A stretch of 64,000 nt of DNA, from positions 4,227 through 68,226 of the forward strand of contig JBBSGK010000004.1 of the NCBI GenBank assembly GCA_038254115.1, written 5' to 3'. A program made the position numbers and the translations under genes. How positions within the stretch are numbered: position 1 is the stretch's first letter; every line of letters begins with the position of its first letter. The notes beneath the pieces are model-generated. The model saw only the letters and a list, made by a program, of their open reading frames with translations, was not told the origin of the DNA and made no database searches. Of this stretch, positions 12,690 through 59,914 are shown piece by piece. Origin of the DNA: Candidatus Levyibacteriota bacterium. Lineage in GTDB: Bacteria; Patescibacteriota; Microgenomatia; Levybacterales; UBA12049.

Positions 12690-13256
12690 TTGACCAAGCT
12701 ATTTATTCCAATTCTTCTCGGAACTGTACGCCCCAAGCGTGAATCCATAAAAGCCGCAAATTTGATTGAGAAAGTAGGAAAGACGATTAAGGAGATAGAA
12801 GTTTCATTAGTCGATCCGAAGGATTACAATTTTCCCTACGATGGCAATGATCCTGAGAACAAAGACCCGCGCTATTCAAAGCTGACAAAAAAAGCTGATG
12901 GATTTTTTATAGTGACACCGGAATATAATCACAGCTTTCCCGGAACTTTGAAAAGAATGCTCGACTCAGAGCTCAAAAATTACATCCATAAGCCTGTTGC
13001 ATTTGCCGGTGTTTCCAATGGAATTTTTGGGGGAGCCCGGGCTATTGAATCGCTCACCCATACAGTACGTGAGATGGGGCTTGTTCCTACTTTTTCAGAT
13101 GTCTATTTTCCGCAAATTCAGAATCTATTTGATGAAAAAGGAGAGATAATTGATAAGGGATATGTGAAAAGAATTGAGAGGGGATTTGCCGAGCTGATCT
13201 GGATGAGCAAAGCGTTGAAGTGGGGACGGGAGAATCTGGAAAGTATTTATCACTAA
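12690..13256 (+). CDS. NADPH-dependent FMN reductase (flavodoxin-like fold)
   Basis: ...FFIVTPEYNHSFPGTLKRMLD... is the NADPH-dependent FMN reductase signature. The 3' end (ELIWMSKALKWGRENLESIYH*) is repeated twice downstream. Confidence 0.8.
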   Translation: MTKLFIPILLGTVRPKRESIKAANLIEKVGKTIKEIEVSLVDPKDYNFPYDGNDPENKDPRYSKLTKKADGFFIVTPEYNHSFPGTLKRMLDSELKNYIHKPVAFAGVSNGIFGGARAIESLTHTVREMGLVPTFSDVYFPQIQNLFDEKGEIIDKGYVKRIERGFAELIWMSKALKWGRENLESIYH

Positions 13257-13921
13257 GAAGTTGCAAATTCAGGCATTGGTATATCCGCAAAGCGTGGTAC
13301 AAGTTCAGGATTAAGTTCCGGATCCCGGACAGCTCTATTTATAAGTATCAAAGATTCTGCAACATTTCTTTGCAACTCTTCAATTTGATACCATGGGCTT
13401 TCTTCATCCCCAAGTGTGAATCCAGCACCATTTAGCCCTAGGTCTTGCAGCGATTCACGATCCAAGACTTTACCGTACTGGTGGTCAGAATGGTAATTTA
13501 TTTCATGTAGTGGTGTCTCATCAGGTTTAAAGCTGTAATTAATTGTTATAGTACGCATGTCATCCCACTTCGCATCGTCATAACTAACATTCCTGCTTGG
13601 CCTCCCATAAATTTCGGCAACTATCCTGCCGCTTCCATATAATGGTAAAGTAGCTGCTCCAAGATTAACTGGTGTTGAGAAAGCTCTTTTGTTATCTTCA
13701 TTGCCAATGACTTTTAAAAGATCGATTCCTCCTTCGACTAATGATTGTTGTCTTTCAAGAGCAGCAATTTGAAACCGTCTATCAGCAGGATCAATCTCGC
13801 CGTTTTTGACTTTATGATGAGTTTCTGCTCGTTTGAGATGCACTCTCTTTTCTATCATTTGAGCCCTGAGTCTTTCGGGATTCATAAGTATATAGTATAT
13901 CACATAAATGCAATATAGCAA
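13253..13921 (-). CDS. hypothetical protein (cassette gene 1; Arg-rich)
   Basis: 222-aa ORF, convergent with the FMN reductase, stop overlapping its stop. No family recognised. Confidence 0.55.
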   Translation of the reverse strand: MLYCIYVIYYILMNPERLRAQMIEKRVHLKRAETHHKVKNGEIDPADRRFQIAALERQQSLVEGGIDLLKVIGNEDNKRAFSTPVNLGAATLPLYGSGRIVAEIYGRPSRNVSYDDAKWDDMRTITINYSFKPDETPLHEINYHSDHQYGKVLDRESLQDLGLNGAGFTLGDEESPWYQIEELQRNVAESLILINRAVRDPELNPELVPRFADIPMPEFATS

Positions 13922-13976: not shown

Positions 13977-14072
13977 TTTGCCAGGCGAATCGAAAAAGTT
14001 TACACCGAGCTGATCTCGTTGGCAAAGAGTCTGAAATGGGGACGGGAGAATTTGAAAAGTATTTATCACTGA
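13977..14072 (+). pseudogene. degenerate duplicate of the FMN-reductase 3' terminus (fragment B)
   Basis: In-frame fragment RIEKVYTELISLAKSLKWGRENLKSIYH* versus genuine RIERGFAELIWMSKALKWGRENLESIYH*. Roughly 80% nt identity with 13165-13256. No upstream remainder of the gene. Confidence 0.7.
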
Positions 14073-14872
14073 GCATCGGGATCTTGCGGATTCTCTTCAT
14101 CAGAAATTGGATTAAGCATCTCCCGGAGCTTGCGTCTTGCTCTCATCAGTTTTAATCTGACTCCGTCTTCGCTAGTACCGAGAACATCTGCGATCTCTTG
14201 TATTGAAAAAAGTCCACTTTCAACAAGATTGACTACAATACGAGGGTCAAATATGACATGTTCAGTATGGTTTGGTGAATCCGAATCCGCATTATTTTTT
14301 TGTTTTTTATTATAATATTGTTTGGCTACTTCTTCTCCTAAAGCATTTACTCTGGTTTTTAATGTATCTAATTCCGGAATCTCCTCTAAGCTACTGCATA
14401 CCACGTTTAAAGCTTCAATGATATCACTTTTTAGATTACCCCTCCTGGGCAAATGGGGCAAAAGGGTATATCCAGCACTCACTAATAAATCAACGCGGTC
14501 ATGAGGACTTATGGAATCATCTTCAGTTTTAAGTGCTTTCAAATACATCTTTGCTAAAATACTGGGCGCTACTTTTTTTTGATTCAATGGTATCATTTCA
14601 AGTAATTTTAAAGCTCCTCTTCTTTGGCGGATAATCCACGGATTTTCAGTTTGCCCACTTATACCAGAAAGCAACTCTCTAGTTAGATTCGCAGTTTGCC
14701 CGTTTGACCTCTCAGAATAATGATCCAATTCTGTCCTGATACCGCTCATTAGGAGCTTGCGTTTCGGATCGCGTTCATTCAATAAAAGTGATAATAGGCT
14801 ATCTTTTTCTAGGATTCCTGCGACTAAAATACGATGGGGCTGCATTCTTAATTCTTTTCTCTCGTATTGCAT
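14066..14872 (-). CDS. hypothetical protein with a C-terminal sigma-70 region-4-like HTH (cassette gene 2)
   Basis: 268 aa. The C-terminus LFSIQEIADVLGTSEDGVRLKLMRARRKLREML resembles sigma-factor region 4.2. Its stop overlaps the fragment B stop. Confidence 0.55.
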   Translation of the reverse strand: MQYERKELRMQPHRILVAGILEKDSLLSLLLNERDPKRKLLMSGIRTELDHYSERSNGQTANLTRELLSGISGQTENPWIIRQRRGALKLLEMIPLNQKKVAPSILAKMYLKALKTEDDSISPHDRVDLLVSAGYTLLPHLPRRGNLKSDIIEALNVVCSSLEEIPELDTLKTRVNALGEEVAKQYYNKKQKNNADSDSPNHTEHVIFDPRIVVNLVESGLFSIQEIADVLGTSEDGVRLKLMRARRKLREMLNPISDEENPQDPDAQ

Positions 14873-14903: not shown

Positions 14904-14954
14904 ATGTCAAACGGATCGGAGGGAAGGGAGAATTTGAAAAGTATTTATCATTGA
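14904..14954 (+). pseudogene. second, shorter degenerate duplicate of the FMN-reductase 3' terminus (fragment C)
   Basis: MSNGSEGRENLKSIYH*. It matches fragment B at 27 of 28 nt over GGGAGAATTTGAAAAGTATTTATCA. Confidence 0.6.
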
Positions 14955-14958: not shown

Positions 14959-15621
14959 TCAATTATCATAAACCCTTACTGCAATATCCGGATTTCCGTA
15001 GACTAACGCAGCATCACAAGATCGGAACCAAATATCCAATTGTGTACCGTAACCGTATGTATCATCAATTATAAATCTGTGACCTGCCATCGGACCGGAT
15101 AGGACATCTACATGTGCCCTTTGTGGTTCATCGTTCATGGCAATATCTCCTTCTTTTGCCAATCCCACACCTGAGTTTGTGTCACAATATGCAGTTGATT
15201 TTACAGTACGATCGTGAAAGGTAGAGGATGGATTAGGACTAGAGGCCAACGGATAGGAATCTGTTGTGCTAGCTGAGGTAGGTTCAGTGAAGGTCGGCTC
15301 GGTTTTAGTCGCCGTTTCTTTTGGGGGTGGTGCGGTTATTTCGGGTGAAGCTGTTGGGGGAGGAGCTACAAAAATGGTACTTGTAGATGTATCAGGATTT
15401 ACAAAAATTGTTGTTGAAGTTGGAATTGTACGGGAGGTTGGTTCTACCGCACGCAGGCCTGATGTCACAATAGTTGCACGGTTGTCTACGTGTCTTGCAG
15501 CTGCAACACCTGCGGCTGATTCGGTTAGTGAAACAAATAACATGGCTGAGCGGAATGTTTTTGATCTAAAAAGCCTATTTATCCTATCGGAACGAGCTCC
15601 TTGTTCATGACTTATTCTCAT
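14959..15621 (-). CDS. hypothetical secreted/anchored protein with a Pro/Thr/Ala-rich linker (cassette gene 3)
   Basis: 220 aa. N-terminal hydrophobic segment AMLFVSLTESAAGVAAA, PT-rich stalk, and an approximately 90-aa C-terminal domain. Confidence 0.5.
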   Translation of the reverse strand: MRISHEQGARSDRINRLFRSKTFRSAMLFVSLTESAAGVAAARHVDNRATIVTSGLRAVEPTSRTIPTSTTIFVNPDTSTSTIFVAPPPTASPEITAPPPKETATKTEPTFTEPTSASTTDSYPLASSPNPSSTFHDRTVKSTAYCDTNSGVGLAKEGDIAMNDEPQRAHVDVLSGPMAGHRFIIDDTYGYGTQLDIWFRSCDAALVYGNPDIAVRVYDN

Positions 15622-37001: not shown

Positions 37002-37928
37002 ATGTATTGTTATAATGTGAATGTGCAATTCAGTTTTGTCCCCAAAGGTCCCTTTAATTTACTAAACCAGAATAAATACTTCGGCGGTTGGCCCTCCCTC
37101 AACGATGAAAACAATGCGATAGTTCAAGCATTTCCAGTTGAGGGATGGAGCGATTCCGGAGCTGTTGTAATGGAGCAATCATCTGATGGAAAAATAAGAG
37201 GAGAAGTATTGGGTACAAAAAATTCAGAAAAAGCATGGAAGCAGGCTCTTGCAAATATTTCGCTTGATGTAGATGCAAGAAGTTGGCCTGAAGTAGGGCA
37301 ACGCGATCAGGTAATAAAAAATTTACAGGTGAAATATGATTATCTCCGTCCCATACTTTTCAATTCACCATATGAAGCAGCTGTTTCATTTATCATAGGT
37401 CACCGGATCTCAATCAAACAGGGGAGGGCATTAAGGCAAAATATTTCACAGGAGTTTGGTCAGGAGATTAAAATAGGCAATAAGTCATTTTTTGCTTTCC
37501 CAAATCCGGTTGTGATGCAGCGGATTGAAAAATACCCCGGACTTAGCGGCGAAAAAATAGTACGTCTTCAGGGGGTTGCTAAGGCTGCGCTTGAGGGATT
37601 ACTGGATAGAAAATATTTGCGCAGTATTCCGGTTGAAGAGGCACTTTCAAAGATTTGTACGATAAGGGGGATTGGCAAATTTTTTGCGCAGGGAATATTA
37701 CTGCGTGGCGCAGGGCTTAGTGATTTTGTAACAGAGGATGATATTACCCCGCAAGCAATCCAACAGTTGTACAAATTGGATCATGAACCGAATCGTGCTG
37801 AAGTGTTGGAGATTGCAGATAAATGGAAACCATACCGGATGTGGGCGACTGTCCTTATGCATGTTTGGATAAGAAGTGAGGGAGAGATAGTGAGAAGAAA
37901 CACTCCATTCAGTAAAGTAAAGAAATAA
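37002..37928 (+). CDS. HhH-GPD DNA glycosylase (AlkA-like, 3-methyladenine glycosylase II)
   Basis: AlkA-type N-terminal domain followed by an HhH-GPD core (...IRGIGKFFAQGILLRGAG...). Confidence 0.7.
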   Translation: MYCYNVNVQFSFVPKGPFNLLNQNKYFGGWPSLNDENNAIVQAFPVEGWSDSGAVVMEQSSDGKIRGEVLGTKNSEKAWKQALANISLDVDARSWPEVGQRDQVIKNLQVKYDYLRPILFNSPYEAAVSFIIGHRISIKQGRALRQNISQEFGQEIKIGNKSFFAFPNPVVMQRIEKYPGLSGEKIVRLQGVAKAALEGLLDRKYLRSIPVEEALSKICTIRGIGKFFAQGILLRGAGLSDFVTEDDITPQAIQQLYKLDHEPNRAEVLEIADKWKPYRMWATVLMHVWIRSEGEIVRRNTPFSKVKK

Positions 37929-37929: not shown

Positions 37930-38060
37930 ATGAGCGATATCCCAAATATATCTTTTCAGAAGCTGCAAGTGGCGGATATTCCCCAAATTCATAAGTGGCT
38001 TAAAGAGCCGCATGTACACGCATGGTAAGATAGGTACAAGAAAAATTCTACTGGCGGCAT
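37930..38060 (+). pseudogene. truncated duplicate of the 5' end of the downstream GNAT acetyltransferase gene
   Basis: MSDIPNISFQKLQVADIPQIHKWLKEPHVHAW* versus intact MLNSHKISFRKLEVGDIPQIHKWLKEPHVHEWYDRDKKNS. The 28-nt block ATAAGTGGCTTAAAGAGCCGCATGTACA is identical. A C-to-A nonsense change turns TGGTAC into TGGTAA. Confidence 0.7.
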
Positions 38061-38075: not shown

Positions 38076-38915
38076 TTACATTAAACGTGTTTGGGTTTCC
38101 TCTTGGACACGTTTTGAATCAGTTATAAGAACACCCATTAACAGGTCAACCTGATCAGGAGTTAGTTTATTATCTTGTCCCCATTCGTAACGGTCATCTC
38201 TCATTGCCAATTCACGACCCTGGTCTAATATGCCGATTCCAAGAGCATGCTTTACTTTGGCAATTTCCGATGCCAACCTTCTTCTTTCTACTACAGCATC
38301 TATTATCGTAGAGTCTATTTGGGTATTATCCTCGGGTTTTATTTTTACAGCAGAGGTGACATCTGCAAATACAGCATCGAAATTTCTTAATCCTGCTTGA
38401 GTCAGGATAACTTGATCAACCCTATCTAATCCATTTCTATAATCGCTCAAGCGTTGCAGGGAAGAATCGTTACCCCCCTCAATTGGTATTTTGGTGATTG
38501 CTGGATGATGGCGGACAAATACTGCCCAGTTTTCAAACATGTCCCGTGCTGTGTTTAAGCTTTCACTATCAACTTGTCGATTATTCAAAACATGATTTAC
38601 TGTAGTTTGTACTTTTTTGGAGACTTGTGTTATATAATCATTTGGTGGCATTTCTGTAGGTTTGGCGTCCCAATCGACGATGTTACCCAGGGTAACTTCA
38701 TGATGAAACCTCTCCATTGGATTCGTAGGTATTTCCAGCAACATAATGCCTTGTTCCAATGCGCCTCTGTCGCGTCTATCATCGTAGCCATTACTTGCGC
38801 GCAAGCGTCTTCTACTGCTAAAGACGGTAATTGCATCGCTTACTCTATATAAGTCAAGGAAGGATGCTGCGCGGGGCGCATCAGGTTTTGTCGGTTTTTC
38901 AAGTGTTCCCCACAT
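38076..38915 (-). CDS. hypothetical protein (Arg-rich; inserted between the GNAT fragment and the intact GNAT gene)
   Basis: 279-aa ORF with no family recognised. Confidence 0.55.
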   Translation of the reverse strand: MWGTLEKPTKPDAPRAASFLDLYRVSDAITVFSSRRRLRASNGYDDRRDRGALEQGIMLLEIPTNPMERFHHEVTLGNIVDWDAKPTEMPPNDYITQVSKKVQTTVNHVLNNRQVDSESLNTARDMFENWAVFVRHHPAITKIPIEGGNDSSLQRLSDYRNGLDRVDQVILTQAGLRNFDAVFADVTSAVKIKPEDNTQIDSTIIDAVVERRRLASEIAKVKHALGIGILDQGRELAMRDDRYEWGQDNKLTPDQVDLLMGVLITDSKRVQEETQTRLM

Positions 38916-38963: not shown

Positions 38964-39524
38964 ATGGAGTGCTACAATATGCATATGCTTAATTCTCACA
39001 AGATATCATTCCGGAAGCTGGAAGTTGGGGATATTCCACAAATCCATAAGTGGCTTAAAGAGCCGCATGTACATGAATGGTACGATAGGGACAAAAAAAA
39101 TTCGCTTGAAGAAGTTACCGCGGAGTATACCAAATACATAACAGGGGAAGACAAAATGGATGGATACTTGGTGTGTATTGAAAATAAAGCAATAGGGTAT
39201 ATCCAGAAATACAGGATCTGGGACTGGCCTGAGTTTGCAAAAGCTTTAGGCTATGATAAGTCCACAGTAGCGATTGATATATTTATAGGAGATAAGAAGT
39301 TTATAGGAAAGGGTTTGGGATGTTGTTTTATTAAAAAGTTTCTAAAGGAAATAGTTTTCAAGGAAGAGGGGATAAGGACATGTCTTATTGATCCCGAGCC
39401 GGAAAATAAGCGTGCAATAAAGTCTTACGAAAAAGCAGGATTCCGATATGTCAAAACCCTAGATATCCCACCAGACCCGGGGCTTACTTATTTGATGGAG
39501 ATAAGGAAAGAAGACGCCAAATAG
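38964..39524 (+). CDS. GNAT-family N-acetyltransferase (aminoglycoside-acetyltransferase-like)
   Basis: GNAT core ...IGDKKFIGKGLGCCFIKKFLKEIVF...NKRAIKSYEKAGFRYV. The likely true start is the ATG at 38985 (MLNSHK...), just after a TACAAT box at 38971-38976, which implies a leaderless mRNA. Confidence 0.85.
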   Translation: MECYNMHMLNSHKISFRKLEVGDIPQIHKWLKEPHVHEWYDRDKKNSLEEVTAEYTKYITGEDKMDGYLVCIENKAIGYIQKYRIWDWPEFAKALGYDKSTVAIDIFIGDKKFIGKGLGCCFIKKFLKEIVFKEEGIRTCLIDPEPENKRAIKSYEKAGFRYVKTLDIPPDPGLTYLMEIRKEDAK

Positions 39525-51746: not shown

Positions 51747-52901
51747 TTGGAAAAACGTGGGCAAGCTGATAGAATAGGTTTAATTATGAATCTCTTGAAT
51801 AGTTTCTACGGTCTTTTTTCTCACGATATCGGTATAGATCTCGGCACTGCAAATACTCTTGTTTTTGTCCGGGATAAAGGGATTGTGATCCGTGAACCGT
51901 CAGTTGTCGCGAGGCAAAAAAAGAGCAAACAAATCATCGCGATTGGAAGTGAGGCCAAGAAAATGCTTGGCAAGACACCTGCTTCTATAGTTACGGTACG
52001 TCCGCTTCATGGGGGAACGATTGCGGATTTTGACGCGACTGTTTCGATGATCGCTTACTACATCAAGCAAGTCCATGAGATGGGGGGAAAATTGACCGGG
52101 ATTTTTGCCCGTCCCAAAGTGGTGATTGGGATTCCATCTGCAGTAACCGAGGTTCAAAGACGTGCTGTCTGGGAAGCAGCTCTCTCAGCAGGAGCCCGGG
52201 AAGCGTATCTTATTGAAGAGCCGATGGCCGCGGCAATTGGTGAGAATATATCAATTTTTCAGTCAAAGGGCATAATGGTAGTCGATATAGGCGGCGGGAC
52301 TACAGAAATCGCGGTTATCTCGCTTGGTGGAATAGTAGTCGGCCGGTCAATGAAACTCGCCGGAGACGAGATGGATCAGGCGATCCTGCATTATGTGCGG
52401 CTTCGCCATGGAATGCTTCTTGGGGAGAGTACAGCTGAGGATATAAAAATAAAAATAGGAAGCGCTGCCCAGAAAAGCGCAAAAGCGCAAAAGCGAAGAA
52501 GCGAAGAAGGGGAAGAAGAGAAGGAAGAGATTAGCCGTACGGCGAAGGTTATGATTGTGAGGGGACGGGATATTGAGACTGGTCTTCCAAAAAGCCAGAA
52601 GATAACTGAGCCTGAAATACGTGAGGCATTATCTCCGATAATCAATCAAATAATTCAAGCCGTTGCCGATGTTTTGGAGGAAACGCCGCCTGAGCTATTG
52701 CCTGATATTCTCGAGCAGGGAATTCTTCTCACAGGTGGGGGCGCCAATTTGGAAGGCTTTGATCAGTTGATGGTTGAACGGGTGCATCTGCCTGTTTTTG
52801 TTTCATCTGATCCGATGACCTCTGTTGTCCGCGGAACGGGAAAAGTTGTGCAGGATGAAAAACTCCTCGAGCGGGTGAAGGTAATTGGGGGATTGAGGTA
52901 G
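51747..52901 (+). CDS. mreB: rod-shape-determining protein MreB (with an approximately 35-aa charged insert)
   Basis: Actin-fold motifs DLGTANT, VIGIPSAVTEVQRRA and DIGGGTTE. The insert QKSAKAQKRRSEEGEEEKEE is encoded by the heptamer repeat (AAAGCGC)n(GAAGCGA)n at 52474-52512. Confidence 0.93.
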   Translation: MEKRGQADRIGLIMNLLNSFYGLFSHDIGIDLGTANTLVFVRDKGIVIREPSVVARQKKSKQIIAIGSEAKKMLGKTPASIVTVRPLHGGTIADFDATVSMIAYYIKQVHEMGGKLTGIFARPKVVIGIPSAVTEVQRRAVWEAALSAGAREAYLIEEPMAAAIGENISIFQSKGIMVVDIGGGTTEIAVISLGGIVVGRSMKLAGDEMDQAILHYVRLRHGMLLGESTAEDIKIKIGSAAQKSAKAQKRRSEEGEEEKEEISRTAKVMIVRGRDIETGLPKSQKITEPEIREALSPIINQIIQAVADVLEETPPELLPDILEQGILLTGGGANLEGFDQLMVERVHLPVFVSSDPMTSVVRGTGKVVQDEKLLERVKVIGGLR

Positions 52902-52921: not shown

Positions 52922-53476
52922 TCATGCAGCCGGATTGAGCGCTATCCTACCGGTACGCAGTCCAAAGAAAAAATCTTCCGCTTTTGCCCGTTCATTTTCT
53001 GTGAGTCTGGCCAGGCTTTCGGCAGTTGAAGCATCAATTCTCGCACCGGTCATCATGATAGGAAGAGCTTCCATTTCGTCTACACTCAATTCACGTGAGC
53101 CTAGAGGAATATGGAATGTTGTTCCGTCTTCTTCTGCAACAACATAAGACTTTCTTTCCATGGATGAAGGTCCAATCCCATCTTTACCAGGAATAGGAGT
53201 AAAGGTTGACTTGACAGTTTGAGGACCATCCTCAAACATTACACCGGAACGTGTTAAACCAACTCCTGCTGTATTTGATTTGGCGTTGGGATCCACATAA
53301 TTGAGGCGATATCCACCATCTGATCCTCTGACTTTTATTCCTTCTTTCGCAGACTTTAAATCTCCTAACCCACCATAAAATAAGCTGATGGCCATTCTTC
53401 TTGCATCATCCTTTCTGCTTTGGTCTGGACTTAGTGGTCTTTCTGGTGAGCTTGCCATAATAAGTGGATGATACAT
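52922..53476 (-). CDS. hypothetical protein inserted between mreB and mreC
   Basis: Start trimmed to the ATG at 53474-53476 (MYHPLIMASSPER...). The longer ORF to 53782 overlaps a plus-strand promoter and ORF. Confidence 0.5.
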   Translation of the reverse strand: MYHPLIMASSPERPLSPDQSRKDDARRMAISLFYGGLGDLKSAKEGIKVRGSDGGYRLNYVDPNAKSNTAGVGLTRSGVMFEDGPQTVKSTFTPIPGKDGIGPSSMERKSYVVAEEDGTTFHIPLGSRELSVDEMEALPIMMTGARIDASTAESLARLTENERAKAEDFFFGLRTGRIALNPAA

Positions 53477-53500
53477 TTTTAATAACAGATTGTCAAGACT

Positions 53501-53531
53501 AGCGGTGAAGGTAATTGGGGGATTGAGGTAG
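53501..53531 (+). repeat. duplicate of the last 31 nt of mreB (29 of 31 identical), distal to the inserted gene
   Basis: AGCGGTGAAGGTAATTGGGGGATTGAGGTAG versus the mreB 3' end GCGGGTGAAGGTAATTGGGGGATTGAGGTAG at 52871-52901. Confidence 0.7.
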
Positions 53532-53534
53532 AGA

Positions 53535-53562
53535 TTGCAAATAAACAAAATTGTGGTAGAAT
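53535..53562 (+). promoter_or_regulatory. sigma-70-like promoter (TTGCAA, 16-nt spacer containing TG, TAGAAT)
   Basis: TTGCAA at 53535-53540, then TGgTAGAAT with TAGAAT at 53557-53562, followed 8 nt later by the ATG at 53571. Confidence 0.35.
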
Positions 53563-53570
53563 GCATTTCT

Positions 53571-53882
53571 ATGGGATTAGAAACACAAGATAGATTGGCA
53601 AGAGAAAGAGTACTTGCTACGCTTACATCAATGTCAAATGATGCATATCCATCAAACACACGGCATATAGCTGAAAGAATGGTTCGAGGCAAACCTACAA
53701 CGGGTGATCTGGTAACTGTTTTTCTTGCGTTGGGTCCACTTGAGGAGGAAGGAAAAGTAGAATCTGTTGTAGTTAGACACACAAATCCGGCACATATTGC
53801 TTATCGATTAACCAGAGAATCAGAGCCAAGACGTAGGCGAAAACGAAATAGAAAATGGCCAATAGAGGAAGTTAGAAGATAA
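53571..53882 (+). CDS. small winged-helix-like protein (PadR-like?) with an Arg-rich tail, hypothetical
   Basis: MGLETQDRLARERVLATLTS...TTGDLVTVFLALGPLEEEGKVESVV resembles the PadR wing (LYPALHRLEEEGLI). The C-terminus is RRRRKRNRK. Confidence 0.35.
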   Translation: MGLETQDRLARERVLATLTSMSNDAYPSNTRHIAERMVRGKPTTGDLVTVFLALGPLEEEGKVESVVVRHTNPAHIAYRLTRESEPRRRRKRNRKWPIEEVRR

Positions 53883-54049: not shown

Positions 54050-54805
54050 ATGCAGAAGAGGAAGAGTTTTTTCCCCACGTTTTTAATCTTTTTTATACTT
54101 TCTATATTTATTTTTCTCTTATCCCGCTTAGGATTTCTCAACGGATTGACAGGATTTTTGGAGAGGGCAACAGTACCTCTGCAACGTGTAATATTTGGAG
54201 CAACACATTCCGATAAATGGGGAGAGTCTGCAAAATTGAAGGATGAAAATAGTAAATTGGCCTCACAAATTGTAAAGCAATCAGAATTGAAGCGTGAAAA
54301 TCAGGCACTCCGTGATCAATTCCAGACTTCAAATCCGGCGCCCAGAATACTTTTACCGGCAAAAATTATAGGTAACAATGATGGCAGTCTAACAATTGAT
54401 AAGGGACGCGCGGACACTCTAAAAAAAGGTGATGTAGTAGTTATAAAAGACAATCTAATCGGCAAGGTGGAGAAAATTTCAGAACACCTCGCAACTGTAA
54501 GCCTTCTAACTTCAAACATAATCTTTACTGCAAAAACGGCCAAAACAGGATCAGTCGGAATACTGAAAGGCCAATCAAATGGCATGATACTTGATAATGT
54601 TCTGCTCAATGATCATCTTGAGAAAGACGATTTGGTCATAACAAAGGGGGATGAAGATTTATATGGAAGTGGATTTCCGCCTGATCTGGTTGTCGGGAAA
54701 ATTGTTTCGGTAAATAAAAAAGCAAGCAATCTTTTCCAAAGCGCTGAAGTTAGGAGCTTAATTGATTTTTCCAAACTCGAAACAGTATTCATAATTACGA
54801 AATAA
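54050..54805 (+). CDS. mreC: rod-shape-determining protein MreC
   Basis: N-terminal TM helix, coiled coil (ENSKLASQIVKQSELKRENQALRDQF), then beta-rich domains. It lies downstream of mreB. Confidence 0.85.
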   Translation: MQKRKSFFPTFLIFFILSIFIFLLSRLGFLNGLTGFLERATVPLQRVIFGATHSDKWGESAKLKDENSKLASQIVKQSELKRENQALRDQFQTSNPAPRILLPAKIIGNNDGSLTIDKGRADTLKKGDVVVIKDNLIGKVEKISEHLATVSLLTSNIIFTAKTAKTGSVGILKGQSNGMILDNVLLNDHLEKDDLVITKGDEDLYGSGFPPDLVVGKIVSVNKKASNLFQSAEVRSLIDFSKLETVFIITK

Positions 54806-54811: not shown

Positions 54812-55222
54812 ATGGAGATATTATTTTTCATTCTACTTATAATTTCTATTTTCGTGGAATCAACTTTTATAAACTTGCCCCTAGTATTCATTCTTCTGGT
54901 TGTGTTTTGTATCCTCAAAAAAAGCGGCTACGTATTTTTGAGCGCTTTTTTAGCAGGAATTTTACTGGATCTTACAGCAGTCCGGTTTCCGGGAACATCC
55001 AGTATTTTTTTCCTCCTCGTTCTTTTAATGATCATGCTATATCAACGCAAATATGAAATTAATTCTTATCCTTTTATACTTGTCAGCTCGTTTGTTGGAA
55101 CGTATATGTATTTGATTATTTTTAATAAGCATGCTAATTTATTACAGCCATTTTTATGTACCATTTTAGCATTGGTGCTATACTCAGTTCTGCAAATACG
55201 GGAAGTAAGAAGCAATAATTAA
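54812..55222 (+). CDS. mreD: rod-shape-determining protein MreD-like membrane protein
   Basis: 136 aa, four to five TM helices, positioned between mreC and mrdA. Confidence 0.6.
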   Translation: MEILFFILLIISIFVESTFINLPLVFILLVVFCILKKSGYVFLSAFLAGILLDLTAVRFPGTSSIFFLLVLLMIMLYQRKYEINSYPFILVSSFVGTYMYLIIFNKHANLLQPFLCTILALVLYSVLQIREVRSNN

Positions 55223-55284: not shown

Positions 55285-57078
55285 ATGAAAACAGGATACG
55301 CCTTTGGTGAGCATATAAAAACAGAGAAGATCAAAAAAAGAAGATATTCGTCAGGTCCGTCGGATTTTAACTCGCGCGAATTTTTTCTTCCCCTTGCACT
55401 TTTTGGAGCAGCCGTTCTTCTGATATCCAAACTATTTTATCTGCAAGTGGTTAAGGGTTCTGATTTCCGGGCGCTTTCTGATTCCAACCGAATAAGGACT
55501 CAAATTATTCATGCTCCGCGGGGTGCTATATTTGACCGGAACGGTGTCCCGCTTGTAATAAATAATCCGGGATTCAGGCAGGTAAATAAAGACAAATCAA
55601 CAATCTTGACTCGGGATCAGGCGCTGCCTCTTATTGCAAAAGGGGATAAAAATCTCGAGGTAGACTCTCTCAGGAATTATGTCTTAAAAGACAGTCTGAG
55701 CCATGTTATCGGATACATCGGCCAGGTCTCCAAGCCCGAGCTCGATTCAGGGGAGTTTAATGATTACCGTGGTACTGATTGGATAGGTAAAAGCGGAATT
55801 GAGAGGCAATATGAACACATATTGAGGGGCACAGACGGTAAGCAACTGGTTGAAGTCAATGCAATGGGTAATAAAGTGCGTCCACTTGGCACGACCGATC
55901 CAATTTCAGGGCAGGATATCACACTGACGATTGATTCGAAGCTTCAGCAAGTTGTATTTGACGCGACAAAAGATGTAAAAAAGGGCGCTGTTATCGTCTC
56001 CAGCCCGACAGGTGAAATTCTGGCAATGGTTTCGCGTCCTTCTTATGACCCCAATCTTTTTACCCTGGATAAAACTTATAAAGTTGCAACGGATGCAGCG
56101 CATCAAAATGTAAGTGAGATACTTCTGGATTCACAAAATCAGCCGCTTTTGAACAGGGCAATTGCAGGTACATATCCTCCCGGCTCAACATACAAAATAG
56201 TGACAGCCGCCGCCGGACTTAATGAAAATATTATTGATGAGAATTACAAGATACGCGACAGCGGTGTAATAAAAGTCGGGGAGTTTTCTTTTGCGAATTG
56301 GTACTATACGGGTTATGGCAGGACAGAGCCGGGTGAGCTAAATGTAGTCCGTGCACTGGCTCGGTCCAATGACATTTTTTTCTACAAACTTGCTGAAAAA
56401 GTAAGTCCTGACAAGCTATCTGAAATGGCAGTAAAATTTGGTTTGGGAAATAAATCGGGCATTGACTTGGGAGGAGAAGCAAAAGGTTTGGTTCCTACTG
56501 AAAAATGGAAAAAAACTGTAATTGGGGAGGGATGGTACTTGGGAGACACTTATCATTATGGAATAGGACAGGGATTTTTATTGACAACACCTCTTCAAGT
56601 TAATGAATGGACAGAGGTAGTTGCAAATGGCGGGAGTCTGTACGAGCCACATTTGCTGAAAGCTCAAAGTGAAAAGCGCAAAAGCGCAAATATTTTGAAT
56701 GATAAGACGATTTCTTTGATCAGGCAGGGAATGATTGAAAGCTGCTCAACGGGAGGTGTTGCGTGGCCATTATTCAAGTTTAAAGTTCAAAATCCAAAGT
56801 TAAAAGTTGATGGCAAAAATATTTTGGAAGTAAAAGAAGCCAGTGAATCAGCAAAATCTGAAAGCTTGAGAGAGATTGCGGTGGCGTGCAAGACTGGAAC
56901 CGCCCAGCATGGAGGGGAGACGACCCTGCCTCATGCATGGATTACCCTCTTTGCTCCTGCATACAATCCCCAAGTTGTAGTAACTGTTTTGAATGAGGAG
57001 AGTGGGGAAGGCTCAAATGAGGCAGCCCCAATAGCTAAAAAGATATTGGAAGCCTATTTTACAGAAACACCTCAATAA
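55285..57078 (+). CDS. mrdA: penicillin-binding protein 2 (peptidoglycan D,D-transpeptidase)
   Basis: N-terminal anchor, dimerisation domain, and transpeptidase motifs SxxK (PGSTYKIV), SxN (ARSNDIFFY) and KTG (ACKTGTAQ). It contains (AAAGCGC)x2 at 56672-56689. Confidence 0.9.
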   Translation: MKTGYAFGEHIKTEKIKKRRYSSGPSDFNSREFFLPLALFGAAVLLISKLFYLQVVKGSDFRALSDSNRIRTQIIHAPRGAIFDRNGVPLVINNPGFRQVNKDKSTILTRDQALPLIAKGDKNLEVDSLRNYVLKDSLSHVIGYIGQVSKPELDSGEFNDYRGTDWIGKSGIERQYEHILRGTDGKQLVEVNAMGNKVRPLGTTDPISGQDITLTIDSKLQQVVFDATKDVKKGAVIVSSPTGEILAMVSRPSYDPNLFTLDKTYKVATDAAHQNVSEILLDSQNQPLLNRAIAGTYPPGSTYKIVTAAAGLNENIIDENYKIRDSGVIKVGEFSFANWYYTGYGRTEPGELNVVRALARSNDIFFYKLAEKVSPDKLSEMAVKFGLGNKSGIDLGGEAKGLVPTEKWKKTVIGEGWYLGDTYHYGIGQGFLLTTPLQVNEWTEVVANGGSLYEPHLLKAQSEKRKSANILNDKTISLIRQGMIESCSTGGVAWPLFKFKVQNPKLKVDGKNILEVKEASESAKSESLREIAVACKTGTAQHGGETTLPHAWITLFAPAYNPQVVVTVLNEESGEGSNEAAPIAKKILEAYFTETPQ

Positions 57079-57098
57079 AATCTTGCACTTGAATTTTC

Positions 57099-57674
57099 TT
57101 GCCCCCCCTGATAGAATATAGGACTATGAGATTTGAAAAGCAAGATAGAAGACCACATGTAGCAAGGGATGGTCAACGCGGCAGAAGCGAGGAGGGCTCG
57201 GAGCTTCCGGCCGGCCCAAGAAAAAGTTTTTTTGATGCTGTTAACCAAAAGGGTTCTGATATGCGTGATTTAGCCTGCCGAGGGTTACTATATCAGTCAA
57301 CAACTGGCGAGATAACTGTGGGAAGTAATCCCCAAAATGGGCCAAAAGTTACAATAACGGTTGATATTAAGGCAAATCGTGATATGGTGGTTCATAGACG
57401 CATATATCATGATTCCAGCGGCAAGCATCTAAAAAGACATGATGAATTGGAACTTACATCTTCAGACAGGGATCCAGCAACAAGAACTTTCACAAGAATT
57501 AGAATTGAGAGTGAGGATCACATAAGCGGAAAAAAGTCTTTCACCATTGATAATGAGGGACCAGATCAAGTAGTAGACCAAAGCGGTGTAGATTTTGCAA
57601 CAAAAATTCTTAAAGATGCATCCGGTGATTTAAAGCGCTTAATGAGACCTGAGGCATCTGATGAGTTCGCGTAA
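57099..57674 (+). CDS. hypothetical protein (Arg-rich) inserted after mrdA
   Basis: 191-aa ORF, bracketed by the mrdA 3' end and its duplicate. Confidence 0.5.
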   Translation: MPPLIEYRTMRFEKQDRRPHVARDGQRGRSEEGSELPAGPRKSFFDAVNQKGSDMRDLACRGLLYQSTTGEITVGSNPQNGPKVTITVDIKANRDMVVHRRIYHDSSGKHLKRHDELELTSSDRDPATRTFTRIRIESEDHISGKKSFTIDNEGPDQVVDQSGVDFATKILKDASGDLKRLMRPEASDEFA

Positions 57675-57687
57675 CTCTCCCCAAAAA

Positions 57688-57733
57688 GCCAAAAAAATCT
57701 TGGAAGCGTATTTTACAGATCGAAAATAATTGA
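57688..57733 (+). pseudogene. degenerate duplicate of the mrdA 3' terminus
   Basis: GCCAAAAAAATCTTGGAAGCGTATTTTACAGATCGAAAATAATTGA encodes KKILEAYFTDRK*, versus genuine GCTAAAAAGATATTGGAAGCCTATTTTACAGAAACACCTCAATAA (AKKILEAYFTETPQ*) at 57034-57078. Confidence 0.65.
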
Positions 57734-57779
57734 TTCTTCAAATACTTGATTTTTATTAATCTTATGTTATTATTTTGCT

Positions 57780-58115
57780 ATGATTGATAGGGACCAGGTC
57801 CGAGCAAGGTATAGGAGATTAAAGCCTTTTGTAAGCAGTTTAGAGAGCGTACCAAAAGCAGAGCAATTGTGGAGAAACAAAGACCGAGGCGTAATATTCT
57901 CATTATTAAAATATGCAACTTTAGAAGACGCAGTATTAGGTGATTACACTGGGGCAGAACTAAATTTACGTGGGAGATTAAGAGCAAGAACAAAAGTTGT
58001 TGATGATTTTGTCAGAGCTTTTGGTAAGCCAACTAGAGAAAAATTGACTAAAGTGCTGGGAGTACCTAAAAAGGTAATATGGGAAGATCCAAGAATTAAT
58101 AGATCCTCACAATAA
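57780..58115 (+). CDS. hypothetical protein (Arg-rich)
   Basis: 111-aa ORF. Confidence 0.4.
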   Translation: MIDRDQVRARYRRLKPFVSSLESVPKAEQLWRNKDRGVIFSLLKYATLEDAVLGDYTGAELNLRGRLRARTKVVDDFVRAFGKPTREKLTKVLGVPKKVIWEDPRINRSSQ

Positions 58116-58138
58116 GACTGGATTCTGCATAAAGATTA

Positions 58139-58765
58139 TTGTATAATACCGCCATGGTATTAGCAGAAGTAGAAACAGAAGGCAAAGAACAAGATGGGTA
58201 TTTCAGAGTCCGCAGGTTTGTCGCCCGGGTGTCGGATCTGCATGAGCTTCAGGAACAAAGACTTGAAGGTATGAAGATGGAGCGAGGGGTCGGATCGCTT
58301 GATGGCCAGATCGCTATAGTTGAGGAGGATTTGCGTGACAGAGCTGAGCAGACTGAGGTGCAGGATTGGGCAGCCAGAAAGAAGGAGCAGTACGATGCCG
58401 AGTTTACTGGACTTGTGCGCCAAAAAGGGCGACGGGGACAAAGCCTCTCAGCATTAGATGAAGAGATTGAAGCTCTAAGAGGAAGTAAAGAGGTCTTAGC
58501 TCTACGTTGGTACTTAGAAAGTAGGCAGGGAGGGTCGAGAAAGAGGGGCCAAAAATCTCCATCAGCAAATGCGCAGAAACGAGTTGCTGCACTTGGTAGG
58601 GCTATTAAAGATGGAAATTATAGAACACCACAGGGGCATTTTGCAGTAGGGCGAGCAGCAACAGATATTGGAATAGGGCCAAATACTGCCAAAAGAGATT
58701 TTATGAGACTGCCAGCAGATCAAAGAGGGGGACTGACCCTTAGAACAGCCGCTCCTAGAAAATAA
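58139..58765 (+). CDS. hypothetical protein (Arg-rich)
   Basis: 208-aa ORF. Confidence 0.45.
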   Translation: MYNTAMVLAEVETEGKEQDGYFRVRRFVARVSDLHELQEQRLEGMKMERGVGSLDGQIAIVEEDLRDRAEQTEVQDWAARKKEQYDAEFTGLVRQKGRRGQSLSALDEEIEALRGSKEVLALRWYLESRQGGSRKRGQKSPSANAQKRVAALGRAIKDGNYRTPQGHFAVGRAATDIGIGPNTAKRDFMRLPADQRGGLTLRTAAPRK

Positions 58766-58789: not shown

Positions 58790-59914
58790 ATGCAAGAAAG
58801 ATCATATTGGCTTGGGTTTTCTTCTTTTTCGGGGATTGGGCCCAAGAAGTGTGAAGCTTTATTAAATGAATTCGGCACTGCTGAGGATGCATGGAAAGCG
58901 GATTTTAAAAATCTGGAGAAAGTATTGGGGAAAGCGCTTACCCCAAAGTTTGCAGATTTCCGTGACAGTTTCTCGATAGCAGACTATGAAAAACAACTCC
59001 TAAGGAAAAAGGTGGGATATTTGATTCTTACGGATAAAGATTACCCGTTCTTGTTAAAACAAATCAAGAAACCTCCATTTGTACTTTATTATAAGGGTAA
59101 TATTGAGATCTTGAAACAAGACGTGCCTACCGGTAGGCAGGTTCAGGATGACTATAAATCTATTGCGATTGTCGGGACGCGGCGGATTACTGAGTATGGA
59201 AAACAAGTGACTACCAGTCTTACAATGGACTTGGTAAACAATGGTTTTGTAGTTGTTTCAGGGCTTGCTCTGGGAGTTGACGCTGCAGCCCACAAGGCAA
59301 CTATCTTGAATAAAGGCAAGACAATAGCGGTACTTGGGTGCGGAGTTGATTGCTGTTATCCCAGGGAGAACCAGCAGATTTATGATAACATTCTTGAGAG
59401 TGGGGGAGCGATTGTGTCTGAATATTCTCTTGGTGAGCCCCCCTCAAAAGGATCTTTTCCATCAAGAAATCGAATTATCTCAGGTTTGTCATGCGGCGTA
59501 ATTGTAACAGAAGGATCTGCAGATAGCGGGGCGTTGTATACGGCAGATGATGCATTTGCCAATGGACGGCCCGTATTCGCAGTTCCAGGGCCCATCACAT
59601 CGAGCCTCTCAAAAGGCCCTCATGGATTGATAGGAAAAGGGGCAAAGCTTATAAGCGGGGCTGGGGAAATCATAGAGGAATTAGGTTTCAGAGGAGACAG
59701 AAGAGACAAAGGGGAGAGAGGGGCGAAGAGTTTTAAGGGAGATACAAAAGATGAACAGAGAATTATCGATCTCCTGCAGAATGAAAGCCTGCATTTTGAT
59801 GAGATTGTAAAACGAAGCAAGATCAGGTCTTCAAAACTGGGCGGAATTCTTTCAATGATGGAGATGAAAGGAATTGTAAAAAGTCAGGAAGCTGGCTTTT
59901 TCTGTTTGATTTAG
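58790..59914 (+). CDS. dprA: DNA-processing protein A (Smf/DprA)
   Basis: Rossmann-like DprA core IAIVGTRRITEYGKQ...VVSGLALGVDAAAHKA...IAVLGCGVD..YP, plus a C-terminal winged-helix-like domain. Confidence 0.85.
   Translation: MQERSYWLGFSSFSGIGPKKCEALLNEFGTAEDAWKADFKNLEKVLGKALTPKFADFRDSFSIADYEKQLLRKKVGYLILTDKDYPFLLKQIKKPPFVLYYKGNIEILKQDVPTGRQVQDDYKSIAIVGTRRITEYGKQVTTSLTMDLVNNGFVVVSGLALGVDAAAHKATILNKGKTIAVLGCGVDCCYPRENQQIYDNILESGGAIVSEYSLGEPPSKGSFPSRNRIISGLSCGVIVTEGSADSGALYTADDAFANGRPVFAVPGPITSSLSKGPHGLIGKGAKLISGAGEIIEELGFRGDRRDKGERGAKSFKGDTKDEQRIIDLLQNESLHFDEIVKRSKIRSSKLGGILSMMEMKGIVKSQEAGFFCLI

What the first reader, a model, noticed from the sequence alone, without database searches (positions are those of the whole stretch)
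57034..57733. Degenerate duplicate of the mrdA (PBP2) 3' end brackets a single inserted gene downstream of the mre-mrd operon
The mrdA terminus AAAAAGATATTGGAAGCCTATTTTACAGAAACA...TAA (57034-57078, ...KKILEAYFTETPQ*) recurs at 57688-57733 as AAAAAAATCTTGGAAGCGTATTTTACAGATCGAAAATAA, encoding KKILEAYFTDRK*. The 600 bp between them hold one Arg-rich hypothetical gene (57099-57674). Unlike the other three loci, this one is on the plus strand. It is the fourth instance of terminus duplication around a single-gene insert.
Basis: seen in the sequence. Interest (0 to 1): 0.7.

Follow-up and report, generated by a model that had tools for sequence, protein, structure and literature searches.

The report
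Orphan mrdA gene-end left by recombination
A 40-50 base copy of the end of the cell-wall gene mrdA sits stranded one gene downstream of the real end; it is most likely a scar from two alternative gene sets being joined by recombination in a variable slot of an uncultivated (Levybacteria-like) bacterium, which is a neat but fairly ordinary footprint of gene gain.

Summary
Window 57026-57065 (the mrdA/PBP2 3' end) recurs at 57680-57719 with 34/40 identity. The local score is 50, against a null of 18.8±2.4 with a maximum of 26. The second copy reads in frame as PQKAKKILEAYFTDRK*. Nothing else of mrdA recurs, so it is not a longer paralog remnant.

One gene lies between the copies: A, 57126-57674, 182 aa. 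The same anatomy occurs at three more loci in the window: the mreB end, an FMN-reductase end present three times, and a GNAT 5' end. It also occurs at the mreB end of two related genomes, around a BrnT/BrnA pair.

The repeat always stops at or a few codons inside the gene's own start or stop. Differences between copies are enriched for synonymous changes (20 of 36; expected fraction 0.19; P about 1e-6). The intervening genes are unrelated to each other. I found no integrase, transposase or terminal inverted repeats.

My reading is that the mrdA-dprA gap is a hypervariable slot, empty in one relative. Two alternative slot contents from related lineages were joined by recombination that was homologous on one side and illegitimate on the other. 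This left an orphan gene end.

Which part came in is unresolved. Gene A's only homolog lies in the same slot of another genome. Interest is modest.

The parts
55285..57078 (+). mrdA (PBP2, 597 aa), last gene of the mreB-mreC-mreD-mrdA cluster
   Evidence: ORF; Pfam PBP_dimer + Transpeptidase; 79% identical to the Levybacteria MAG OY970292 protein.
57026..57078 (+). Copy 1: the functional mrdA terminus. Repeat core 57026-57065; allele-specific tail ...E T P Q * at 57064-57078.
   Evidence: (D17).
57089..57117 (+). Promoter-like site (TTGAAT-17-TAGAAT with TG) ending 8 nt before gene A's ATG at 57126
   Evidence: This is a consensus match only; the number of sites in the region is not above chance.
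57126..57674 (+). Gene A: 182-aa protein of unknown function. 19 Arg, 7 of them in the first 40 residues. Disordered N-terminus, then helix, six beta strands, helix.
   Evidence: called as 182 aa; no Pfam, PHROG, NCBIfam or PADLOC hit; one homolog, P0002, at 35% identity and E=1e-16; model pLDDT 67.6; composition.
57675..57687 (+). Novel junction between the end of gene A (stop 57672-57674) and the orphan. The three leftmost repeat codons (57679-57687) are all non-synonymous against conserved A-P-I, so they are probably junction or microhomology rather than true homology.
   Evidence: Codon table; A-P-I-A is conserved in all relatives.
57680..57729 (+). Copy 2: orphan mrdA 3' end (…AKKILEAYFTDRK*). 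It is in frame, has its own TAA at 57727-57729, and has no upstream mrdA sequence.
57746..57773 (+). Promoter-like site (TTGATT-16-TATTAT with TG) ending 6 nt before gene F's ATG at 57780
57780..58115 (+). Gene F: 111-aa ORFan immediately downstream of the orphan end
   Evidence: no homolog other than itself in 5.8e9 protein clusters.
58154..58765 (+). Gene G: 203-aa Arg-rich hypothetical protein, GC 0.485, the last occupant of the slot
   Evidence: no family hit.
58790..59914 (+). dprA, the conserved right-hand border of the variable slot
   Evidence: Pfam DNA_processg_A. dprA directly follows mrdA in relative L012.
52870..52901 (+). Parallel locus 1, copy 1: functional mreB terminus (…VKVIGGLR*)
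   Evidence: (D19).
52922..53476 (-). Parallel locus 1: gene B between the copies. Minus strand, about 184 aa from 'MYHPLIMASSPERP…' or about 177 aa from 'MASSPERP…'; the independent gene call is 52922-53566, 214 aa. Its N-terminus and upstream region weakly resemble the slot gene of L005.
53501..53531 (+). Parallel locus 1, copy 2: orphan mreB end. 28/28 identical, ends exactly at TAG, and is followed by a promoter-like sequence and gene H (53571-53882).
13189..13257 (+). Parallel locus 2, copy 1: functional end of the FMN_red gene (12690-13256)
   Evidence: (D8/D9).
14005..14073 (+). Parallel locus 2, copy 2: orphan FMN_red end (TELISLAKSLKWGRENLKSIYH*), after gene C (13253-13885/13921, minus strand)
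14921..14954 (+). Parallel locus 2, copy 3: second orphan FMN_red end, after gene D (14066-14872, minus strand, sigma-70 region 4 at its C-terminus) and before gene I (14959-15621, minus strand)
37930..38048 (+). Parallel locus 3, copy 1: orphan 5' end of the GNAT gene, with its own ATG 1 nt after the stop of gene 37002-37928. It carries one TAC>TAA nonsense change.
   Evidence: (D6).
38076..38915 (-). Parallel locus 3: gene E between the copies (279 aa, chorismate-mutase type II domain at its C-terminus)
38985..39103 (+). Parallel locus 3, copy 2: 5' end of the functional GNAT gene (38964/38985-39524)

Best explanation
The 57680-57729 segment is an orphaned 3' end of mrdA, a recombination scar.

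In this Levybacteria-like (CPR/Patescibacteria) lineage, the gap between mrdA and dprA is a hypervariable slot, like the gap between mreB and mreC. Related genomes hold different small, fast-evolving genes there, or none.

I propose that DNA from a related lineage carried a different slot content next to its own mrdA end. It recombined with this chromosome by homology on one flank only, and by an illegitimate join on the other. This could have happened by homology-facilitated illegitimate recombination of a linear fragment, or by a Campbell-type single crossover of a circularised fragment through 30-120 nt of homology. The illegitimate join fell about 45 nt inside the mrdA 3' end.

As a result both slot contents were kept side by side: mrdA-[tail 1]-A-[last ~15 codons of the other mrdA allele + tail 2]-F-G-dprA.

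Shown by the data:
- The repeat itself and its boundaries.
- That it is not a longer paralog remnant.
- That the slot is variable and can be empty.
- That the same scar type recurs at other genes and in other genomes.
- That differences between copies are enriched for synonymous changes.

Inferred:
- The recombination route, with natural transformation as a plausible entry route.
- The donor being a related lineage.
- The order of events (A incoming with tail 1, or orphan+F+G incoming).

The orphan itself probably has no function. The 40-nt direct repeat could allow rare RecA-mediated loss of gene A. Gene A encodes a real, selected protein of unknown function.
For: 1. The repeat is highly non-random and is confined to the gene end.

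2. At every locus the repeat stops at, or a few codons inside, the gene's own boundary. mreB stops exactly at TAG. FMN_red stops at the stop codon +1-2 nt in all three copies. mrdA stops 4 codons before the stop. GNAT runs from the in-register ATG or within 5 codons of it. The inner boundary varies from 28 to 119 nt. This is what homology between two alleles with different neighbours predicts.

3. Pooled over the loci, 20 of 36 site differences are synonymous against an expected fraction of 0.19 (P=1e-6). The mrdA core has 4 synonymous and 0 non-synonymous differences. All orphans keep frame and stop, apart from one nonsense change in the GNAT orphan.

4. At two of the four synonymous mrdA sites the orphan carries the state common in relatives (ATC, GCG), so the change is not concentrated on the orphan. 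Both tails are within the range of natural PBP2 ends (FTK, FTKR, FSDKK, FTENK, FTEKK, FTE…).

5. The slot is variable. Nine relatives carry different genes between mrdA and dprA or the next conserved gene. L012 (78% PBP2 identity) has mrdA directly followed by dprA, and L013 has mreB directly followed by mreC.

6. Gene A's single homolog is in the same slot of L007. This fits exchange of slot alleles among related lineages.

7. There is an independent parallel. In L012 the mreB end recurs after an inserted BrnT/BrnA pair (score 40 against a null maximum of 28). The same orphan is present, more decayed, in L005.

8. The intervening genes are unrelated to each other and their GC content is genome-like, 0.38-0.49 against 0.405.

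9. No integrase or transposase was found among about 50 ORFs scanned, and there are no terminal inverted repeats.

10. Experimental precedent: single crossover of circular molecules with truncated homology gave 109-950 bp duplications of the lacZ end in E. coli (PMC3240628). HFIR has been proposed for orphan arrays behind conserved genes in V. cholerae T6SS and Rhs loci (PMC5361080). Patescibacteria are reported to be naturally competent and to keep homologous recombination genes (PMC12455944), and dprA is present here.
Against: - No empty-site or alternative-allele strain of this organism is available. The nearest PBP2 is 79% identical, so neither donor nor recipient has been seen.
- For the mrdA locus alone the codon argument is weak if the three leftmost repeat codons, all non-synonymous, are counted: 4 synonymous against 4 non-synonymous.
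- The pooled synonymous excess is partly expected even after an in-situ duplication, because one copy stays under selection.
- A sliding-window comparison of mrdA with eight relatives showed no mosaic breakpoint. The relatives are too distant for this to be informative.
- Five scars in 64 kb is many for a process that is rare in laboratory systems.
- No microhomology can be demonstrated at the junction without the parental sequences.
Confidence: 0.6

Rival explanations
1. In-situ duplication. A foreign gene was captured at a staggered break or by replication template-switching inside the mrdA 3' end, and the 40-50 nt between the nicks were copied on both sides as a long target-site-like duplication. 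The downstream copy has since decayed.
For: The topology is the same as a target-site duplication. The mreB copies are 28/28 identical. The three leftmost codons of the mrdA orphan and the nonsense codon in the GNAT orphan look like decay. The L012 and L005 orphans carry 1-nt deletions.
Against: - The duplicated segment ends at the gene's start or stop codon at every locus. Random staggered breaks do not predict this.
- The differences are enriched for synonymous changes.
- The functional copy, not the orphan, carries the rarer state at two mrdA sites.
- The tails beyond the core differ completely (ETPQ* against DRK*), and the stop codons differ (TAA/TGA) while staying in place.
- The 28/28 identity at mreB is uninformative, because a relative with 79% PBP2 identity is 27/28 identical there.
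- Lengths vary from 28 to 119 nt.
Confidence: 0.2
2. Site-specific integrative element. The insert is a minimal or degraded island that integrated into the 3' end of mrdA through an integrase acting at an att site, carrying a replacement gene end, in the way e14 or phage 21 integrate in E. coli icd. The two copies would be attL and attR.
For: Direct repeats made of a gene end, with the element supplying a slightly different terminus, are the classical signature. Integration of e14 creates a 163-bp pseudo-icd (PMC6379469). The three-copy array at FMN_red resembles tandem integrations.
Against: - There is no integrase, recombinase or transposase in the insert or among about 50 ORFs of the window.
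- The inserts are single genes, unrelated to each other.
- The repeated sequences are different at each locus, so one site-specific enzyme cannot explain them.
- There is no match in phage or plasmid collections.
- Gene A has a homolog in the same slot of a relative without any repeat.
Confidence: 0.07
3. Assembly or amplification artefact. Two co-occurring strains with different slot contents were stitched together by the assembler or by chimeric reads.
For: The sequence comes from a metagenome-derived contig. The organism is seen in one sample only.
Against: - Two assemblies (an NCBI contig of 70.7 kb and a Logan contig) agree base for base over 13.8 kb. However, they probably share the same reads.
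- Four of the five repeat pairs are imperfect (80-94% identical), so a k-mer graph could not have collapsed or joined them.
- The junction follows gene A's stop by 5 nt, with no shared sequence that could mislead an assembler.
- The same kind of scar is present in unrelated samples: L012 (ENA ERZ25039516) and L005.
Confidence: 0.03

Closest known systems
3'-end ('C-terminal') displacement arrays: Rhs, CdiA and V. cholerae T6SS effector-immunity loci, with orphan modules (PMC2935791; PMC5361080)
   Same: A conserved gene is followed by variable modules. An incoming module recombines through the conserved part, and the previous module is pushed downstream while keeping a short fragment of the conserved gene's 3' end. 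Successive events give arrays, as at the FMN_red locus here. HFIR is the mechanism proposed for these loci.
   Different: There, the variable part is the toxin tip of the conserved gene itself plus an immunity gene, and displacement has an evident selective logic. Here the conserved genes are housekeeping genes (mrdA, mreB, an FMN reductase, a GNAT). The variable modules are separate ORFan genes with no toxin or immunity signature, and the gene's own tail changes by only 3-4 codons.
Homology-facilitated illegitimate recombination, and single-crossover (Campbell-type) integration of circular DNA with short homology (de Vries & Wackernagel 2002; Prudhomme et al. 2002; PMC3240628)
   Same: One-sided homology is enough to add foreign DNA. 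Single crossover of a circle with truncated homology duplicates the gene end (109-950 bp in E. coli). The products have exactly the topology seen here.
   Different: Those are laboratory events with engineered substrates and are very rare (about 1e-10 in E. coli). Here they are natural, fixed events with shorter repeats (28-119 nt), and there are several per 64 kb. The route (linear HFIR or circle) cannot be told from the product.
Prophage or island integration into the ends of protein genes (e14 and phage 21 in icd; Rac in ttcA)
   Same: The gene end is duplicated as attL/attR. The element supplies a near-identical replacement end, leaving a pseudo-end of tens to hundreds of bp.
   Different: Those need an integrase and a specific att core, and the insert is a whole element. 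Here there is no integrase, the inserts are single unrelated genes, and each locus has a different repeat.
Minimal mobile elements of Neisseria (Saunders & Snyder 2002; PMC3787668)
   Same: There are fixed slots between conserved genes that hold different genes in different strains, exchanged by transformation and flanking homology. The mrdA-dprA and mreB-mreC gaps behave like this across relatives.
   Different: Exchange of minimal mobile elements is a clean replacement by two homologous crossovers and leaves no duplicated gene end. Here the exchange was additive and left a scar.

Membership tests
Terminal-displacement / orphan-module arrays (Rhs, CDI, T6SS effector-immunity type) | A fragment of the conserved upstream gene's 3' end is retained in front of the displaced downstream module | tested here: met
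   The orphan at 57680-57729 precedes F and G. Orphans also precede H, D and I.
Terminal-displacement / orphan-module arrays (Rhs, CDI, T6SS effector-immunity type) | The variable module is a toxin domain plus a cognate immunity gene | tested here: not met
   A, B, C, F, G, H and I have no Pfam, PHROG, NCBIfam or PADLOC hit. D has only sigma-70 region 4 and E has a chorismate-mutase domain. The parallel case in L012 is a BrnT/BrnA toxin-antitoxin pair, not a polymorphic toxin.
Terminal-displacement / orphan-module arrays (Rhs, CDI, T6SS effector-immunity type) | Orphan modules match full modules of other strains | tested here: inconclusive
   Gene A has one homolog in the same slot of L007. 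F has none. No genome with …FTDRK*-F was found.
Site-specific integrative element (prophage, ICE or island with attL/attR in a gene end) | An integrase or recombinase is encoded in or near the element | tested here: not met
   None in the insert or in about 50 window ORFs.
Site-specific integrative element (prophage, ICE or island with attL/attR in a gene end) | Flanking direct repeats contain a common att core shared by elements of the family | tested here: not met
   The repeats are locus-specific gene ends with no shared sequence.
Transposon / insertion sequence with target-site duplication | A transposase gene and terminal inverted repeats | tested here: not met
   No transposase. The only inverted repeat near the ends of the insert is 10 nt at 90% complementarity.
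Transposon / insertion sequence with target-site duplication | A short target-site duplication of fixed length, identical at the time of insertion | tested here: not met
   Lengths are 28-31, 34, 40, 69 and 104-119 nt, with 80-100% identity and differences enriched for synonymous changes.
Diversity-generating retroelement (template and variable repeat at a gene's 3' end) | A reverse transcriptase nearby, and mismatches confined to adenines of the template repeat | tested here: not met
   No reverse transcriptase among the scanned ORFs. The six mismatches are C/A, T/A, T/C, G/A, A/C and C/G.
Minimal mobile element-type variable slot | The same pair of conserved flanking genes holds different intervening genes in different genomes, including empty sites | tested here: met
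   The contents between mrdA and dprA differ in L002, L003, L004, L005, L007, L008, L009, L013 and L015, and the slot is empty in L012.
Minimal mobile element-type variable slot | Exchange by two flanking homologous crossovers that leaves no scar | tested here: not met
   A duplicated gene end is present.
HFIR / single-crossover integration product | One junction lies in homologous sequence and the other is illegitimate, at microhomology | not testable with these tools
   This needs the parental (donor and recipient) sequences. No relative closer than 79% PBP2 identity exists in the searched collections.

The most novel reading that the evidence does not exclude
Levybacteria-like CPR bacteria might possess a systematic, and possibly dedicated, pathway that adds single promoter-bearing ORFan genes next to conserved genes through very short (30-120 nt) homology to the gene's end. 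It would work like a natural 'suicide-vector' or cassette system without an integrase. The gene-end scars, five in 64 kb here and others in relatives, would then be its regular signature, and a countable record of gene gain by transformation in uncultivated, genome-reduced episymbionts.
Probability: 0.1. Interest if true: 0.7.

Novelty: new member of a known kind. Interest (0 to 1): 0.38.

Why it matters
CPR/Patescibacteria have tiny genomes, are mostly uncultivated, and carry many lineage-specific ORFans whose origin and mode of acquisition are unclear.

These scars are direct, sequence-level evidence that genes are added at fixed slots between conserved genes by recombination with DNA of related lineages, without mobile-element machinery. 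Alternative slot contents can accumulate rather than replace one another.

Because the scar is recognisable from sequence alone (a gene-end fragment in frame, ending at the stop or start codon, one gene away), it could be counted across metagenome-assembled genomes to estimate how often such additive recombination happens.

For annotation, the practical points are:
- 57680-57729 is a pseudogene fragment, not a small ORF.
- mrdA's last four codons are allele-specific.
- Gene A is a real protein-coding gene of unknown function.

Tried and rejected
- Longer mrdA paralog remnant: rejected. Only 41 nt match, and there is no PBP2 similarity in any frame of 57079-57800.
- Extension of the repeat through the promoter to the next start codon (57079-57135 against 57730-57795). 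The −35-like 'ACTTGA.TTTT' and an in-register 'CTATGA' are suggestive, but the score of 18 is not significant (202 of 3000 null pieces reach it).
- Similarity among the intervening proteins A-E and the neighbours F-I: none. Similarity of the insert DNA to anything else in the window: none.
- Phage or plasmid origin of the insert: no match.
- Rfam: only four tRNAs in the window and nothing at the locus. There are no intrinsic terminators in 56900-58300.
- Strain-level presence/absence. The genome scan, the metagenome scan and the 5.8e9-protein search found no PBP2 more than 79% identical. Exact-protein look-ups for mrdA and F found only one further contig, identical over the 13.8 kb fetched around mrdA.
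- Mosaic breakpoint in mrdA, by sliding-window identity to eight relatives: no signal, because the relatives are too distant.
- Orphan mrdA ends in ten relatives: none.
- DGR, integron, transposon and integrase readings: rejected on their defining features (see the membership tests).
Full report
**1. Observation**

The window around the finding encodes mreB (51747-52901), mreC (54050-54805), mreD (54812-55222) and mrdA/PBP2 (55285-57078). Three hypothetical genes follow (57126-57674, 57780-58115, 58154-58765), then dprA (58790-59914), a subtilase and topA.

The last codons of mrdA recur 654 nt downstream. Positions 57026-57065 match 57680-57719 at 34/40, ungapped (family D17).

The match is far beyond chance:
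- The local score is 50. Against 1798 random window pieces the null is 18.8±2.4 with a maximum of 26.
- Against shuffles the null is 20.2±2.3 with a maximum of 30.
- Self-blastn of the whole window gives E=4.5e-5.

In frame the two copies read APIAKKILEAYFTETPQ* and PQKAKKILEAYFTDRK*. No other piece of mrdA, as DNA or protein, is detectable between 57079 and 57800. The 'longer paralog remnant' alternative is therefore excluded.

An independent Logan assembly of run SRR24807095 is identical over 13,794 nt covering this locus and the mreB locus.

**2. It is one of a series**

Self-comparison of the window gives only a handful of significant short-range direct repeats. Apart from a repeat protein and tRNAs, they all have the same anatomy:
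- The mreB end (52870-52901) recurs at 53501-53531, 28/28 and ending exactly at TAG. Minus-strand gene B lies between the copies.
- The end of an FMN_red gene (13189-13257) recurs at 14005-14073 and again at 14921-14954. Minus-strand genes C and D lie in between.
- The first ~40 codons of a GNAT gene (38985-39103) have an orphan copy at 37930-38048. The orphan has its own ATG 1 nt after the preceding gene's stop. Minus-strand gene E lies in between.

The five intervening proteins are unrelated to each other. A, B and C have no family hit. D has only a sigma-70 region 4. E ends in a chorismate-mutase domain.

**3. The surroundings in related genomes**

The organism is a Levybacteria-like CPR bacterium. 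The best PBP2 match is 79% identical (MAG OY970292), and nothing closer exists in GTDB species representatives, JGI metagenomes or 5.8 billion protein clusters.

Across relatives, mrdA…dprA and mreB…mreC are conserved neighbours, but the genes between them differ in almost every genome. They include small wHTH-like proteins (my reading of the sequences, no family hit), HicA/B and BrnT/A pairs, pilins, membrane proteins and a desaturase.

Empty sites exist. L012 (78% PBP2 identity) has dprA 97 nt after mrdA. L013 has mreC directly after mreB. These gaps are therefore hypervariable slots.

Gene A is an ORFan. It has only itself among 5.8e9 clusters, and one homolog among 1.84e9 representatives read exhaustively (P0002, 35% identity, E 1e-16). 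That homolog lies in the same slot of L007, immediately upstream of dprA and with no mrdA-end repeat. A is therefore a real, fast-evolving gene that belongs to this slot in the clade. It is not an obvious foreign intruder. Gene F has no homolog at all.

**4. A parallel in other genomes**

In L012 the mreB end (4327-4363) recurs at 4991-5025, 84% identical and including the stop. The score is 40 against a null maximum of 28. It follows an inserted BrnT/BrnA pair and lies next to the 3' end of the convergent slot gene that is also present in L005. L003 and the window carry a minus-strand gene in the same position, with at most weak similarity.

L005 carries the same orphan in a more decayed state. 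The scar type therefore recurs independently in this clade and can persist for a long time. No relative has an orphan mrdA end.

**5. What the scars say about mechanism**

Three features are informative.

(a) The outer boundary of every repeat coincides with the gene's own boundary. This is the stop codon for mreB and FMN_red, and a few codons inside for mrdA and GNAT. The inner boundary varies from 28 to 119 nt.

(b) Differences between copies are enriched for synonymous changes: 20 of 36, against an expected fraction of 0.19, binomial P=1e-6.
- In the mrdA core AKKILEAYFT all four differences are synonymous.
- FMN_red copies 2 and 3 differ only synonymously.
- All orphans keep frame and stop, except one TAC>TAA in the GNAT orphan.

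(c) At two of the four mrdA synonymous sites the orphan has the state common in relatives and the functional copy has the rarer one. Both tails, ETPQ* and DRK*, are within the natural range of PBP2 ends.

Together these fit two alleles of the gene end that diverged while each was functional in its own genome. Their homology naturally ends where the gene ends, because their neighbours differed. They fit an in-situ, target-site-like duplication followed by decay less well.

There is no mobile-element machinery:
- No integrase, transposase or reverse transcriptase in about 50 ORFs.
- No terminal inverted repeats.
- No common att core.
- No phage or plasmid match.
- The GC content of the inserts is genome-like.

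**6. Best explanation**

I read this as additive recombination between alternative slot alleles of related lineages. One junction was made by homology in a conserved flank. The other was illegitimate and fell a few dozen bases inside the conserved gene's end. As a result both slot contents, and a stranded gene-end fragment, are kept.

The product is what homology-facilitated illegitimate recombination or a Campbell-type single crossover with short homology yields. In E. coli, single crossover with truncated homology produced 109-950 bp duplications of the lacZ end (PMC3240628). HFIR is the mechanism proposed for orphan arrays behind conserved genes in Rhs and V. cholerae T6SS loci (PMC5361080).

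Uptake by natural transformation is plausible for Patescibacteria (PMC12455944). This is inference.

The polarity at mrdA is open. Either [mrdA 3' part…ETPQ* + A] came in and displaced the old end with F-G, or [orphan end + F + G] came in behind a resident A. The L007 homolog slightly favours A-type genes being old residents of the slot.

My confidence in the overall model is about 0.6.

**7. Rivals**

- In-situ duplication at a staggered break or by template switching: 0.2.
- A degraded site-specific element of the e14/icd type (PMC6379469): 0.07.
- Assembly artefact: 0.03.
- Chance similarity is excluded.

**8. Gene A itself**

A is a 182-aa protein with 19 Arg (7 in the first 40 residues) and pI 7.0. 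The model built from the two-sequence alignment has pLDDT 67.6 and pTM 0.63. It shows a disordered N-terminus, a long helix, a six-stranded antiparallel sheet and a C-terminal helix.

Structure searches give no convincing relative. Its function remains unknown. Conservation with P0002 shows that it is under selection.

Promoter-like sites with extended −10 elements end 8 nt and 6 nt upstream of the A and F start codons. This suggests short-leader or leaderless transcripts (consensus matches only).

**9. Novelty and verdict**

The phenomenon belongs to a known kind: recombination scars in which an orphaned gene end marks displacement or additive integration. Here it is seen at housekeeping genes of a CPR genome, with ORFan cargo, and unusually densely (five events in 64 kb).

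It is useful as a marker of how these reduced genomes gain genes, but it is not mechanistically surprising. Interest is about 0.38.

Noticed in passing
window 50086-50115 and 50973-51002 (inside ORF 49442-51745, minus strand); L002 669-720 & 1567-1618; L005 751-908 & 1465-1610; L003 890-1003 & 1670-1783: The large Wzy_C/TPR membrane-protein gene upstream of mreB contains two heptanucleotide tandem arrays about 700-900 nt apart, at equivalent positions in all relatives. The heptamers differ between genomes: (GAAGTAA)n, (AGTAAGA)n, (AAATCCG)n and (GTTTCGA)n. In L003 no long ORF spans the region. This may be frame-shift-prone (phase-variable) sequence or recurrent simple-sequence evolution in transmembrane segments.
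   Followed up: partly
L005 7378-7425, L012 8321-8346 (inside mrdA); PBP2 proteins P0005, P0010, P0015, P0018, P0019 etc.: Many PBP2 orthologs of this clade carry an (AAAAATC)n heptanucleotide array in frame, encoding 'KNQKSKIKNQK'. The window's mrdA lacks it and has 'KAQSEKRKSANI' there instead. This is another case of 7-nt repeats inside coding sequence in these genomes.
   Followed up: no
L002 2490-2604 and 5891-5996: A 116-nt AT-rich sequence (73% identical, E 3e-11) occurs upstream of mreB and again just upstream of mrdA (overlapping the 3' end of mreD) in the Levybacteria MAG OY970292. It could be a repeated intergenic or promoter element.
   Followed up: no
L004 2661-2696 and 4222-4257: A 38-nt internal piece of mrdA (encoding KAWKQKTFGENW) recurs at 84% identity 1.56 kb downstream, inside a minus-strand pilin-like gene (E 5e-4). 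It could be another recombination scar that is not at a gene end, or it could be chance.
   Followed up: no
window 2427-5318 (minus strand), incl. 3943-4026: A 963-aa protein with one Big_3_5 Ig-like domain and long Gly-rich 9-nt-periodic repeats (GGX-like). It includes a perfect 42-nt tandem duplication at 3943-3984/3985-4026.
   Followed up: no
window 14066-14872 (minus strand) and 38076-38915 (minus strand): Two of the 'slot' genes are domain fragments attached to unknown N-terminal regions. D has only sigma-70 region 4 at its C-terminus (residues 222-249). E has a chorismate-mutase type II domain (residues 199-272) after about 190 residues with no match.
   Followed up: partly
L012 4416-5004; L005 3590-4142; L015 8838-9344; L005 7830-8105: Toxin-antitoxin pairs (BrnT/BrnA, HicA with its partner) occupy the same mreB-mreC and mrdA-dprA slots in relatives. 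This shows that the slots also take up classic mobile cargo.
   Followed up: partly
window 57614-57659: An imperfect 26-nt palindrome (73% complementary) lies inside the 3' part of gene A, just upstream of the junction with the orphan. Its significance is unknown.
   Followed up: no
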